Part shown: positions 52,612-55,600 of the stretch, piece by piece
How the letters are laid out: every line of letters starts with the position of its first letter
How positions within the stretch are numbered: position 1 is the stretch's first letter
NCBI GenBank assembly: GCA_027451665.1
Contig: DAIDIW010000005.1
Coordinates: forward strand, 2,955-66,954
DNA: 64,000 nt
Reading direction: 5' to 3'
Origin: Candidatus Kaiserbacteria bacterium
Lineage (GTDB): Bacteria; Patescibacteriota; Minisyncoccia; Phycocordibacterales; Phycocordibacteraceae
The notes under the pieces: model-generated
What the model was told of the DNA's origin: nothing
Databases searched by the model: none
The model's input: only the letters and a program-made list of their open reading frames with translations
Translations under genes and position numbers: made by a program

Positions 52612-55600
52612 AGGTCTCCGTACGGGAGACACTGAAGAGTACACGGTGGATGCCTTGGCCTAGGATGGCGATGAAGGACGTGACTAACCTGCGAAAAGCT
52701 TCGGGGAGGCGGTTTGTAGCCTGTGATCCGGAGATGTCCGAATGGGGAAACCTGGCCGCTTCGGCGGTCGCGCATGGGGTAACGCTCATGCGTGCGAACT
52801 CGGGGAAGTGAAACATCTCAGTACCCGAAGGAAAAGAGAACAATATGAGTTCTCGTTCGCTTTATGCGTATGCTCGTGTAAAGCGAACGAGGACTCCGTG
52901 ATGCCCTGAATAGCGGCGAGCGAAAAGGGAAGAGCCCAAACCTCTGTCTACGGACAGGGGGGTTGTAAGGTATGCGTGTCGTACTTGTACGAGAAGAGTT
53001 ACCAATTGTCTGTATAGTCAAAGCTGTTGGGAAGCAGCGCCCCAGAGGGTAATGGCCCCGTAGACGAAATACATGACGACTCTTTTGCGCATATTCTTGA
53101 GTAGCTCGAGACATGAATAGCTCGAGTGAATCTGCCGGAACTAACCGGTAAGGCTAAATACATCCTACGACCGATAGCGAACTAGTACCGTGAGGGAAAG
53201 GTGAAAAGAACCCCGAGAGGGGAGTGAAATAGAACTGAAACCGTGTACTTACAAAGGGTCGGAGCGGGCATTTATGTCCGTGACGGCGTGCCTATTGAAG
53301 AATGAGCCGGCGAGTGTGTGTATCTTGCGTAGCTAAATCCTTACGGGATGGAGCTTAAGGGAAACCGAGCGTTAATAGCGCGATTGTAGGATACATACGA
53401 CCCGAAGCCAGATGAGCTTGCCATGAGCAGGGTGAAGTTTGTCGAAAGACAGATGGAGGCCCGAACCCGTATGCTGTACGACACATTGGGATGACTTGTG
53501 GTAAGGAGTGAAAAGCTAATCGAATCTGGTAATAGCTGGTTCTCTCCGAAACAGCTTTTGGGCTGGCGTCGCTATATGTGTGCCTGGGGGTAGAGCACTG
53601 GAAGGGACCAACAGGGAGAAATCTCGTGGTTCCTATCAAACTCCGAATACCAGGTACCCGAGCGGCAGTTAGAACGTGGGGGCGAAGCTCCATGCGTCGA
53701 GAGGGGAAGAGCCCAGATCGCCAGTTAAGGCCCCAAAATCTACGCTCAGTACATCACAAGGAAGTGCGGATCCATTGACAGTGAGGATGTTGGCTTAGAA
53801 GCAGCCATCATTTAAAGAAAGCGTAACAGCTCACTCATCGAGGGTCCGTGCGCCGAAGATAATCGGGGTTAAGCGTAGTGCCGAAACTGCGGGTGTGCGA
53901 TCTCTCAGGAGATCGTACGCGGTAGGAGAGCGTTCCAAGCCGCGCTGAAGGGTAAGGGGTGACCCGTCCTGGAGCGCTTGGAAGTGAGAATGCCGGTACA
54001 AGTAACCACAATGCGGGTGAGAACCCCGCACGTCGAAAGACCAAGGTTTCCTCAGCTATGGCAATCAACTGAGGGTTAGTCGGGCCTAAGGGGATGGCGA
54101 AAGCCGCACCCGATGGACACACGGTTAATATTCCGTGACCGCTACCTGGGCTAAGGAGTGACGGACTGCTGTACCTGCCGCCGGTTATTGGATTCCGGTC
54201 GGCGTCGTGAGCGCGCATGCTAGGTAAATCCGGCATGCATTAGCGCGAGCGGCGACGCAATTTCCTCCCACGGGGGGAGAGAGGGCAGGGAGCGCGGTTC
54301 CAAGAAAATCTTCTAAGCTTAACCAGGATAGTGACCGTACCGCAAACCGACACAGGTGGTCAGGGCGAGTAGCCCAAGACGAACGAGTGAGATGTCCTCA
54401 AGGAACTCGGCAAAAAAGCGGCCGTAACTTCGGGATAAGGCCTGCCCATCGCAAGATGGGCCGCAGTGAAAGTTTTCCTGCCAACTGTTTACCAAAAACA
54501 CAGCTCCCTGCGAACTCGTAAGAGGATGTATAGGGGGTGACACCTGACCAATGCCGGAAGGTCAACCACGGTCGGTATGCTGCTTCGGTAGTATGCTGGG
54601 CTGTGTAAGCCCCGGTGAATGTCGGCGATAACTATAATCGTCCTAAGGTAGCGCAATTCCTTGTCGGGTAAATTCCGACGTGCACGAATGGTGTAATGAG
54701 TGGGAAACTGTCTCGAGGACTCGCTCGGTGAAAATGCAATACCGGTGAAGATGCCGGTTACCTGTAGTTAGACGAAAAGACCCCAGGAGCTTTACTACAG
54801 CTTCGTATTGGCCCTGCGGGATACATGCGTAGCATAGATGGGAGACTTTGAAGCGTCGCTTTCGGGTGGCGTGGAGTCGTCAGTGAAATACCATTCTTGT
54901 ATCTTGCAGTGTCTAACCGATGGAGCGTAACTCCATCGGGACCGTGCGTGGCAGGTAGTTTTGGTGGGGCGCTATCCTCCTAAAAAGTAACGGAGGAGTC
55001 TATTAAGGTCAGCTAGGCGCGAATGGAAACCGTGCCGATAGTGTAATGGCACAAGCTGGCTTAACTGCGAGGGGTACGTCCCAAGCAGATGCGAAAGCAG
55101 AGCATAGTGAACCGATGGTACGCCTTAGATGCGGCCAGAGATTAACGGATATAAGTTACCCTGGGGATAACAGGCTAGTTCCGCCCAAGCGTCCATAGCG
55201 ACGGCGGAGTTCGGCACCTCGATGTCGGCTCACCTTAGCGCGGGGCTGGAGCAGGTCCCAAGCGTTTGGCTGTTCGCCAATTAAAAAGGTACGCGAGCTG
55301 GGTTCAAACCGTGCAGCACTCGATTCTCGGATCGAAGATTGCACGGTTTGAACCCCGAGAGAACTGTTAGCCACGTGGAGACGTGGTGTGCGAAAACGAC
55401 AAATCACGGCGGTCGCATGCAGGGATGCATGCGAAGAAATCGACTGATATCGGTAAAACCCGGAAATGCACCGGGCAATACCGAGGGAAGCGCTTCGGCG
55501 CACCCCTAGAGACTGAACGTCGATTATCCAGAACGGATAAAGTTACAGTCCGATCCTCCGAGTAATCGGAGCAAACGAAATGCGTGAGACAGGTTGGTCT

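What the first reader, a model, noticed from the sequence alone, without database searches (positions are those of the whole stretch)
55306..55577. ~270-nt insertion in 23S rRNA domain V at a classic group I intron site, without a homing-endonuclease ORF
Seen: the conserved 23S stretch GAGCUGGGUU | ... | (A)AAUGCGUGAGACAGG is interrupted by ~270 nt with no counterpart in standard 23S. The insert ends in G (omega-G-like) and contains segments resembling group I R (gagactgaacg) and S (aaagttacagtcc) core elements. No ORF is present. Established: this neighbourhood (E. coli ~2585-2596) is a recurrent group I intron insertion site, and CPR rRNA genes frequently carry introns or insertions. Inference: a self-splicing ORF-less intron is the likeliest explanation, but a retained expansion segment cannot be excluded by eye.
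Basis: partly seen in the sequence, partly recalled or inferred. Interest (0 to 1): 0.55.

Follow-up and report, generated by a model that had tools for sequence, protein, structure and literature searches.

The report
Self-splicing intron in 23S rRNA gene
The 270-base interruption of this bacterium's 23S ribosomal RNA gene is an ORF-less group I (self-splicing) intron of a kind already catalogued in these ultrasmall CPR bacteria, but it carries a conserved extra arm that base-pairs with the upstream rRNA, which I did not find described.

Summary
The insertion is real and the group I reading is supported. The coordinates are off by 5-7 nt. The intron is window 55313-55582 (270 nt), inserted after E. 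coli U2593 and ending in omega-G 55582.

Rfam Intron_gpI aligns end to end but scores 41.3 bits, below its 50-bit cut-off. A 29-sequence alignment of relatives gives strong covariation for P2-P9. The same site is occupied in at least 120 Patescibacteria species, with inserts of 233-840 nt, some encoding LAGLIDADG endonucleases. CPR introns at 23S position 2593, including ORF-less ones, are already published (Tsurumaki 2024). This is therefore a new member of a known kind.

The internal guide sequence is not near the 5' splice site. It is CACG|GCGGU (55405-55413), 92 nt downstream, and it covaries with the exon (ACCGU with GCGG, AACGU with GCGU; 75/77 against 1/1).

The intervening L1 insertion carries an "anti-exon", ACGGUUUGAACCC. 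It forms a 16-bp helix across the splice site, pairing U-1 with A rather than G. The element is conserved in 105 of 112 CPR-type relatives. An analogous element occurs in CPR L1931 introns. Its role is inferred only: an exon clamp or a splice-site toggle.

The parts
52623..55874 (+). 23S rRNA gene (host gene); the 5S gene follows at 55961-56074
   Evidence: Rfam LSU_rRNA_bacteria, 2379 bits, model 1-2925
55300..55312 (+). Last 13 nt of the 5' exon (E. coli G2581-U2593), GGGUUCAAACCGU. The 5' splice site follows U55312.
   Evidence: LSU alignment; E. coli rrlH numbering
55313..55582 (+). Group I intron, 270 nt, no ORF
55313..55342 (+). L1 stem-loop A. Its base pairs (GCA/UGC) continue the long helix beyond the splice site.
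   Evidence: MFE fold. Intron +1..+4 pairs with its partner in 82-95% of 106 relatives, with double changes.
55343..55355 (+). 'Anti-exon' ACGGUUUGAACCC, complementary to exon 55300-55312. Together with 55340-55342 it forms a 16-bp helix across the 5' splice site, pairing U-1 with A55343.
   Evidence: Inverted repeat I1. The hairpin folds at -35.1 kcal/mol. L200 shows a compensatory change with its variant exon.
55370..55387 (+). L1 hairpin B (GCCACGU GGAG ACGUGGU), present only in the closest subfamily
   Evidence: Alignment. Only 53% of cells are paired family-wide (helix 3).
55405..55408 (+). 5' part of the internal guide sequence, CACG. It pairs with the 3' exon CGUG 55583-55586 (P10).
   Evidence: 98.3% paired in 29 sequences; one-sided changes keep the pairing
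55409..55413 (+). 3' part of the internal guide sequence, GCGGU. It pairs with exon ACCGU 55308-55312 (P1), with G55409.U55312 as the wobble pair at the splice site.
   Evidence: U.G in 29/29 sequences. Exon-IGS covariation gives counts of 75/1/1/77.
55414..55433 (+). P2 hairpin with a GNRA-type loop (GGGA)
   Evidence: All 6 inner pairs show changes on both sides (helix 6)
55438..55444 (+). P3 5' strand; pairs with 55519-55525
   Evidence: 6 of 7 pairs show double changes (helix 7)
55450..55484 (+). P4 (55450-54 with 55480-84) and P5 (55459-63 with 55471-75)
   Evidence: helices 8, 9
55485..55506 (+). P6/P6a with a UUCG loop
   Evidence: helix 10
55511..55515 (+). P7 5' strand GACUG; pairs with CAGUC 55546-55550. 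G55511-C55550 occupies the position of the guanosine-binding pair.
   Evidence: 100% paired; the terminal pair alternates A-U and G-C (helix 11). Rfam alignment.
55519..55525 (+). P3 3' strand GUCGAUU
55526..55538 (+). P8
   Evidence: All 4 pairs show double changes (helix 12)
55546..55550 (+). P7 3' strand (within the S element AAAGUUACAGUCC)
55556..55571 (+). P9 hairpin with a GUAA loop
   Evidence: 98.9% paired; 5 of 6 pairs show double changes (helix 13)
55582..55582 (+). Omega-G, the last intron nucleotide
   Evidence: All 113 related insertions end in G immediately before CGUGAGACAG
55583..55594 (+). Start of the 3' exon (E. coli C2594 onward), CGUGAGACAGGU

Best explanation
Window 55313-55582 is an ORF-less group I intron in the 23S rRNA gene of a Patescibacteria (Paceibacterota-like) bacterium. 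It is inserted between U2593 and C2594 (E. coli numbering, helix 93, next to the peptidyl-transferase centre).

It most likely self-splices by the standard two-step guanosine-initiated mechanism. The guide sequence CACG|GCGGU (55405-55413) lies directly 5' of P2. It aligns the 5' exon (ACCGU, with a U.G wobble at U55312) and the 3' exon (CGUG, P10). The P3-P9 core supplies the G-binding site in P7, and omega-G 55582 marks the 3' splice site. The ligated product reads ...AAACCGU-CGUGAGACAGG..., which restores helix 93.

Compact relatives place the guide sequence about 10 nt from the splice site. This intron instead has a 92-nt insertion in the P1 loop. The insertion's 'anti-exon' (55343-55355) pairs with all of the last 13 exon nucleotides.

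Inferred, not shown: the distal 8 bp (exon G2581-A2588) act as an intron-encoded clamp that lengthens P1 into a composite helix and tethers the upstream rRNA. The proximal 5 nt (ACGGU) compete with the guide sequence (GCGGU) for the same exon bases. The 5' splice site would then toggle between a closed Watson-Crick state (U-A) and the reactive wobble state (U.G).
For: Group I identity:
- Rfam Intron_gpI aligns over the full model at E=3e-9.
- The family alignment A1 shows 88.3% of cells paired against 72.2% in shuffles, 45 pairs with changes on both sides, and 31-45% paired in slid controls.
- Omega-G is present in 113 of 113 relatives.
- Relatives with longer inserts carry a LAGLIDADG_1 ORF, for example L012.

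Site: LSU alignment and E. coli rrlH.

Guide sequence:
- U.G wobble in 29/29 sequences and P10 98% paired.
- Among 204 introns at this site, exon ACCGU goes with GCGG (75) and exon AACGU with GCGU (77). The off-diagonal counts are 1 and 1.
- Compact P1 forms in L012, L115 and the metagenome relatives place the same motif about 10 nt from the splice site.

Anti-exon:
- 16-bp helix; the hairpin folds at -35.1 kcal/mol.
- Present in 105 of 112 CPR-exon relatives.
- The partner of exon G2583 is C or U only, and the partner of U2584 is A or G only. This fits RNA pairing on the sense strand.
- L200, with the variant exon CAGAACGU, has the matching anti-exon ACAUUCUGAACCC.

Analogy: CPR L1931 introns have an anti-exon covering exon -5..-18 only, which leaves -1..-4 free for the guide sequence.
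Against: - The Rfam score is below the curated cut-off (41.3 against 50 bits), and no splicing data exist for this sequence.
- In a nearest-neighbour model the closed hairpin is far more stable than P1. Forcing P1 costs +22.9 kcal/mol, so activity depends on tertiary energy that I cannot compute.
- The exon-IGS covariation rests essentially on two clades, so the Fisher P value overstates independence.
- L200 keeps the CPR-type guide sequence (GCGGC) although its exon is AACGU, which leaves only 3 bp of P1.
- 73% of relatives have a mismatch opposite C-3 of the exon. The window's perfect helix would be the hardest to open.
- The clamp/toggle role is inference from conservation only.
Confidence: 0.85

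Rival explanations
1. The long 5' hairpin (exon 55300-55312 with 55343-55355) is itself the functional P1. The splice-site U would then sit in a Watson-Crick U-A pair, and CACGGCGGU would have some other structural role.
For: The hairpin has the classical P1 topology: the exon pairs with intron sequence about 30 nt downstream and the helix continues into the intron. It is conserved, and its intron part covaries. In L200 the anti-exon tracks the exon while the IGS-like motif does not.
Against: Compact relatives lack the anti-exon entirely and still have GCG(G/U)N next to P2 as their only possible guide sequence. That motif covaries with the exon. It gives a U.G wobble in 29/29 sequences and a contiguous 4-bp P10. 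The hairpin offers no P10. The position opposite C-3 is mismatched in 73% of relatives. By established group I biochemistry, the U.G wobble is a major recognition element.
Confidence: 0.06
2. The intron has a group I fold but is not autonomous. It needs a host or intron-encoded protein (a maturase or chaperone), or it is a decaying copy that splices poorly.
For: The intron has no ORF. Its Rfam score is below threshold. It has a very stable competing hairpin. It lacks the P7.1/P7.2 peripheral elements that some relatives at this site carry.
Against: All core helices are intact and match the family consensus. The guide sequence, the wobble pair and omega-G are canonical. The intron sits beside the peptidyl-transferase centre of the only 23S gene seen in the window, so it must be removed efficiently.
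Confidence: 0.08
3. The insertion is an intervening sequence excised by RNase III at long duplexes without religation, or it is a retained expansion segment.
For: The 5' hairpin is a duplex of about 22 bp, similar in size to RNase III substrates. Such intervening sequences exist in bacterial 23S genes (PMC11270868). A separate 22-bp hairpin insertion elsewhere in this 23S (52847-52896) could be of that type.
Against: One strand of the 5' hairpin is the conserved exon G2581-U2593, which contains PTC residues, so cutting it would destroy the rRNA. The insertion has a complete, covarying group I core, a guide sequence and omega-G. Insert length varies from 233 to 840 nt between species and some copies carry homing-endonuclease genes, as expected of a mobile intron.
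Confidence: 0.02

Closest known systems
Group I introns at position 2593 of CPR 23S rRNA genes (site '23IS12'; Tsurumaki et al. 2024, J Bacteriol, PMC11270868)
   Same: Same host clade, same gene and same insertion site. The published set includes ORF-less forms (222 ORF-less group I introns in 23S genes) and LAGLIDADG_1-encoding forms. The window intron aligns with more than 100 such insertions.
   Different: That survey classified insertions with the Rfam model and ORF content only. I found no description of secondary structure, guide sequence or the L1 anti-exon in its text.
L2593 group I introns of cyanobacteria (Haugen et al. 2007, PMC1995217). From my own knowledge, also chloroplast introns such as the I-CreI host intron Cr.LSU.
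   Same: Same insertion site, after U2593. They share conserved core segments with the typical-exon relatives found here (AUAUCGGU, ACCGAGGGAA, GUAGAGACU, AAGAUAUAGUCC). The endonucleases are of the single-motif LAGLIDADG type.
   Different: Those introns are about 745 nt, carry an ORF and have P7.1/P7.2 extensions. The window intron is 270 nt, has no ORF and has nothing between P7 and P3'. It has a 92-nt L1 insertion instead.
Engineered trans-splicing group I ribozymes with an extended guide sequence (PMC3895272, PMC6155759)
   Same: Extra antisense pairing to the substrate is added beside a short P1 to increase binding and specificity. This is the closest functional analogue of an anti-exon plus a short guide sequence.
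   Different: Those are man-made. Their extension pairs with substrate sequence on the other side of the splice site, and the ribozymes act in trans.
P(-1)/P1 alternative pairing in Tetrahymena pre-rRNA, and EBS1/EBS2 bipartite exon binding in group II introns (both recalled from memory, not tested here)
   Same: P(-1) is a helix that competes with P1 for the 5' exon end. EBS1/EBS2 are two separate intron segments that together bind the 5' exon.
   Different: P(-1) is an exon-exon hairpin, not encoded by the intron. Group II introns are an unrelated ribozyme class.

Membership tests
Group I intron | Conserved core of P3-P4-P5-P6 and P7-P3'-P8-P7', with the P3/P7 pseudoknot | tested here: met
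   Rfam RF00028 aligns over the full model at E=3e-9, but at 41.3 bits against a 50-bit cut-off. All helices are supported on 29 homologues; P3, P5, P6a, P8 and P9 show many double changes.
Group I intron | Guanosine-binding G-C pair in P7 | tested here: met
   G55511-C55550 aligns to the consensus AGACUA/UAGUC register and is invariant in 29/29 sequences (cols 434/491). Binding itself is not testable here.
Group I intron | 5' splice site after a U that forms a U.G wobble with the internal guide sequence (P1) | tested here: met
   U55312.G55409. The pair is U.G in 29/29 sequences. The guide sequence covaries with the exon between clades, with counts of 75/1/1/77. A competing U-A pairing with A55343 also exists.
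Group I intron | Terminal omega-G, and P10 pairing with the 3' exon | tested here: met
   G55582 is the terminal nucleotide, and all 113 relatives end in G. CACG 55405-08 pairs with CGUG 55583-86, 98.3% paired.
Group I intron | Guanosine-dependent self-splicing that yields ligated exons | not testable with these tools
   Needs an in-vitro splicing assay or RNA reads across the junction.
CPR 23S position-2593 intron family | Insertion exactly between U2593 and C2594, with sequence homology to other CPR insertions at that site | tested here: met
   (site). BLAST matches to L002 (84.5% over 155 nt), L076 and about 90 others. Alignments.
Subgroup IA3 (the type of cyanobacterial L2593 introns) | P7.1/P7.2 extension between P7 and P3' | tested here: not met
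   Only AAC lies between GACUG (P7) and GUCGAUU (P3'). Some typical-exon relatives (L124, L163, L178, L198, L234) do have 30-90 nt at this position.
Mobile intron with a homing endonuclease gene | Intron-encoded LAGLIDADG or other endonuclease ORF | tested here: not met
   No ORF over 60 aa on the + strand, and no Pfam hit at E<=1. The relative L012 has LAGLIDADG_1 at E=5e-12.
RNase III-type 23S intervening sequence | Extended stem-loop replacing a helix tip, excised without ligation, with no ribozyme core | tested here: not met
   A ribozyme core is present. The only long duplex includes essential exon bases.

The most novel reading that the evidence does not exclude
CPR rRNA group I introns at two sites (L2593, including this one, and L1931) share a previously undescribed peripheral module inserted in the P1 loop. 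The module is a hairpin starting at intron +1, followed by an 'anti-exon' that pairs with 8-14 nt of the upstream exon. The guide sequence is displaced about 80-120 nt downstream.

If this reading is right, 5'-exon recognition is bipartite. The clamp and a short P1 together form a composite, pseudoknotted helix. In the L2593 family a 5-nt segment additionally occludes the splice site in a U-A pair, giving a built-in strand-swap switch. Such a switch could couple splicing to rRNA folding or assembly in organisms that, according to the abstract of PMC12641178, have about half the usual number of ribosome-biogenesis factors.
Probability: 0.4. Interest if true: 0.55.

Novelty: new member of a known kind. 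Interest (0 to 1): 0.33.

Why it matters
As an intron, this is routine. CPR bacteria are already known to carry group I introns at this 23S position, with and without endonuclease genes.

Two points have some practical value.
- Rfam's curated threshold misses this intron and 7 of 8 relatives tested. Annotation pipelines that rely on that threshold will leave such rRNA genes looking oddly long, and will undercount introns.
- The family shows a conserved intron-encoded pairing to 13 nt of the peptidyl-transferase-centre strand, and this pairing competes with the true P1. If it acts as an exon clamp or splice-site switch, it would be a natural counterpart of the extended guide sequences engineered into trans-splicing ribozymes. 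It would also be a small, testable model for how rRNA introns manage competition between ribozyme folding and rRNA folding.

Tried and rejected
- **Alternative boundaries.** TG occurs at both junctions, so the boundaries could in principle shift by 1-2 nt. I rejected this. Only 55313-55582 gives a helix 93 of canonical length, an intron ending in G, a 5' exon ending in U, and continuous P1/P10 pairing.
- **The 16-bp 5' hairpin as P1.** Rejected in favour of the downstream guide sequence after finding compact relatives and exon-IGS covariation.
- **Hairpin B (55370-55387) as a family-wide P2.** Rejected. It is present only in the closest subfamily, with 53% of cells paired. The GNRA-capped hairpin 55414-55433 is P2.
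- **mir-154, mir-434 and Guanidine-II matches.** These are chance matches to the hairpin, far below their thresholds.
- **Source contig.** The look-up of encoding contigs on the FtsW-like neighbour found no record, so the source contig was not identified. Taxonomy was inferred from 23S similarity instead: 93.4% to a Paceibacterota MAG, L076.
- **Failed and redundant calls.** The first multi-locus Rfam call failed internally and was repeated with 8 loci. A second Rfam scan of window 1-52700 only repeated.
- **Anti-exon-like helices at other sites.** Sites near 1170, 1920, 1950, 2260, 2500 and 2530 gave nothing above shuffled controls. Only sites near 1931 and 2593 were positive.
- **Literature.** Three searches for the intron site and for an intron-encoded exon clamp or alternative P1 returned the catalogue papers, but nothing describing the module. 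Nesbo and Doolittle 2003 was not available. Absence from the held library is not proof of novelty.
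Full report
**Observation**

Rfam places a bacterial 23S rRNA gene at 52623-55874 and a 5S gene at 55961-56074. In domain V the LSU model aligns ...GAGCUGGGUUCAAACCGU, then skips 276 nt where the model has 6 (CGUGAG), then resumes at ACAGGUUGGUC. The gene therefore carries exactly 270 extra nucleotides.

E. coli rrlH gives G2576-AGCUGGGUUUAGAACGU2593|C2594GUGAGACAG. The 5' exon thus ends at U55312 (= U2593) and the 3' exon starts at C55583 (= C2594). The terminal G is 55582, not 55577.

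The exon differs from E. coli at 2586, 2588 and 2590, with matching changes at 2604 and 2606. These preserve helix 93 and can be read directly from the sequence.

**Is it a group I intron?**

At Rfam's gathering threshold nothing is reported for the insertion. In a focused search, Intron_gpI (RF00028) aligns over its whole length (model 1-253, window 55367-55572) at E=3.1e-9, scoring 41.3 bits against a 50-bit cut-off.

By inspection and the Rfam alignment the helices are:
- P2: 55414-55433, GGGA loop
- P3: 55438-44 with 55519-25
- P4: 55450-54 with 55480-84
- P5: 55459-63 with 55471-75
- P6/P6a: 55485-55506, UUCG loop
- P7: GACUG 55511-15 with CAGUC 55546-50
- P8: 55526-38
- P9: 55556-71, GUAA loop

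No meaningful ORF exists. The only ORFs are 56 and 60 aa on the + strand and 115 aa on the - strand, with no Pfam hit at E<=1.

**Relatives**

In 113 of them both exons could be located.
- The insertions are 233-840 nt.
- All end in G, nearly all in AUG, directly before CGUGAGACAG.
- Most carry AAG(A/U)UA(U/C)AGUCC followed by a GNRA-capped P9.

About 90 of them match the window intron by BLAST. The closest are L002 (84.5% over 155 nt) and L076 (77-92%). The flanking 23S is 93.4% identical to L076, a Paceibacterota MAG.

A long relative, L012, encodes a 145-aa LAGLIDADG_1 protein at E=5e-12. The window copy is therefore an ORF-less member of a mobile-intron family.

On a 29-sequence alignment (A1) the proposed structure has 88.3% of cells paired, against 72.2% in column shuffles and 31-45% when partners are slid. 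It has 45 pairs with changes on both sides. P2, P3, P5, P6a, P8 and P9 are rich in compensatory changes, and the terminal pair of P7 alternates between A-U and G-C.

**Where is the guide sequence?**

The 5' end of the intron forms a striking hairpin. Exon 55300-55312 plus intron 55313-55315 pairs perfectly with 55340-55355, giving 16 bp. With the inner stem the hairpin folds at -35.1 kcal/mol.

This looks like a P1, but it puts the splice-site U opposite A55343 rather than G, and it offers no P10.

All close relatives instead share an invariant CACGGCGG(U/C) immediately 5' of P2. In the window this motif is at 55405-55413.
- GCGGU pairs with exon ACCGU, with a U.G wobble at the splice site.
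- CACG pairs with the 3' exon CGUG.
- The ligated junction is therefore matched over 9 contiguous base pairs, at -14.0 kcal/mol.

To test this I used the metagenome scan to collect introns at the same site in hosts with a different exon...(A/G)AACGU...ACAGUU. These relatives share the core motifs but are compact at the 5' end. An example is AACGU|AGACAACACU-GCGUU-P2.

Across 204 introns, exon ACCGU goes with GCGG next to P2 (75 cases) and exon AACGU with GCGU (77 cases). There is one exception in each direction. The wobble G lies a median 10 nt from the splice site in the compact group and 118 nt in the CPR-exon group.

These are essentially two clades, so this amounts to one or a few compensatory events rather than 150 independent ones. 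Even so, it is the change expected for P1.

Within the CPR group three introns (L012, L115, L100) lack the long insertion, and in L012 and L115 GGCGG sits 10-25 nt from the splice site. On A1, P1 is U.G in 29/29 sequences. P10 is 98.3% paired, and its one-sided changes (A to G opposite U, C to U opposite G) keep the pairs.

I conclude that 55405-55413 is the internal guide sequence. On this reading P1 is closed by a 92-nt 'loop'.

**The L1 insertion and its anti-exon**

The insertion (55313-55404) consists of stem-loop A, the 13-nt anti-exon ACGGUUUGAACCC, a spacer, and a subfamily-specific hairpin B. The anti-exon is present in 105 of 112 CPR-exon introns. Among 92 typical-exon introns it appears in only one true case, L200.

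It is under selection as RNA on the sense strand.
- Exon G2583 faces only C or U, and exon U2584 only A or G.
- Exon G-2 faces C or U in 100% of relatives, and U-1 faces A in 76%.
- Intron +1..+4 pairs with the bases 5' of the anti-exon in 82-95% of relatives, with many double changes.
- Positions -4 to -12 were partly fixed by my search pattern and carry no weight.

In L200, whose exon is GGGUUCAGAACGU, the anti-exon reads ACAUUCUGAACCC. Both exon differences are compensated.

Position C-3 is mismatched in 73% of relatives. The window belongs to the 26% with a perfect helix.

**Mechanism: shown and inferred**

Shown by comparative evidence:
- a complete group I core;
- a canonical guide sequence, wobble pair, P10 and omega-G;
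- a conserved alternative helix that covers the same five exon bases as P1.

Inferred: the distal 8 bp of the anti-exon helix (exon G2581-A2588 with 55348-55355, -10.6 kcal/mol) can persist while P1 forms. Together they would give a composite 13-bp helix in which only a 5-nt strand is exchanged, ACGGU 55343-47 for GCGGU 55409-13.

Topologically this is an H-type pseudoknot, so nearest-neighbour folding cannot score it. Forcing P1 alone costs +22.9 kcal/mol in that model. That figure shows only that tertiary energy or the retained clamp must pay for opening the hairpin.

Support by analogy comes from 15 CPR introns at L1931 in the same loci. They have the same layout:
- a hairpin starting at +1;
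- a conserved linker, GAAGGAC;
- an anti-exon pairing exon -5..-18, in ungapped runs of 8-15 bp, with compensation in the exon variant of L043 and L052;
- the guide sequence GCUACCU only about 81-96 nt into the intron.

In these L1931 introns the last four exon bases are left free for the guide sequence. Six other intron sites in the same loci show no such element.

The most economical reading is an intron-encoded clamp that tethers the upstream rRNA strand and extends P1. In the L2593 family there is an added competitor segment that can hold the splice site in an unreactive U-A pair. What the switch responds to, if anything, is unknown.

**Comparison with what is known**

Tsurumaki et al. 2024 (PMC11270868) report insertions in 82% of CPR 23S genes. 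They classify 433 of them as group I introns, 222 of which have no ORF, and they list position 2593 among the recurrent LAGLIDADG_1 sites. Their text does not discuss intron secondary structure or guide sequences.

Cyanobacterial L2593 introns are about 745 nt, encode LAGLIDADG proteins and have P7.1/P7.2 (Haugen 2007, PMC1995217). The window intron has only AAC between P7 and P3', although some typical-exon relatives do carry an insertion there.

The intron is thus a reduced member of the L2593 lineage and a new member of a known kind. I found no description of the L1 anti-exon module in the searchable literature. That library is incomplete.

**Verdict**

As an intron the finding is ordinary for CPR bacteria. 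The displaced guide sequence and the conserved anti-exon helix are the only features worth further work, and they belong to the whole family rather than to this window alone.

Noticed in passing
L043, L052, L059, L113, L120 and 10 other loci: first ~100 nt of their L1931 introns: CPR 23S introns at L1931 have the same 5' layout as the L2593 family. A hairpin starts at +1, followed by the linker GAAGGAC and an anti-exon pairing exon -5..-18, with the guide sequence GCUACCU about 81-96 nt downstream. That guide sequence appears to pair U1931 with A rather than G.
   Followed up: partly
window 52844-52897: A 54-nt insertion in 23S at Rfam LSU model position 228/229 folds into a perfect 22-bp hairpin (-35.9 kcal/mol, z = -8.8). 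It could be a small expansion segment or an RNase III-type intervening sequence.
   Followed up: partly
window 1-64000: There is no 16S rRNA gene anywhere in the window. The 23S-5S pair is preceded by an MscS-like gene (51647-52330) and ribosomal protein L10 (49905-50405), and followed by FtsW/RodA (56982-58196). The rRNA genes therefore appear to be unlinked.
   Followed up: no
window 55367-55572; loci L002, L076, L047, L013, L012, L124, L123: Rfam's gathering cut-off for Intron_gpI (50 bits) misses the window intron (41.3 bits) and 7 of 8 relatives tested. Only L200 passes, at 58.3 bits. Default Rfam annotation will not flag this family.
   Followed up: yes
L200 (Ga0209211_10101096), intron in exon context CAGAACGU: This intron's anti-exon has changed to match a variant exon (ACAUUCUGAACCC). 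Its guide sequence is still the CPR type (CACGGCGGC), which leaves only about 3 bp of P1. This is unexplained.
   Followed up: partly
L022, L046, L058, L100: CPR-type 23S genes carrying this intron sit in MAGs labelled Bathyarchaeia, Bdellovibrionales and Draconibacterium. This is probably binning contamination or mislabelling.
   Followed up: no
window 9588-12056: Four tRNA genes lie at 9588-9671 (-), 9728-9800 (-), 11227-11311 (+) and 11984-12056 (+). They are unrelated to the finding.
   Followed up: no
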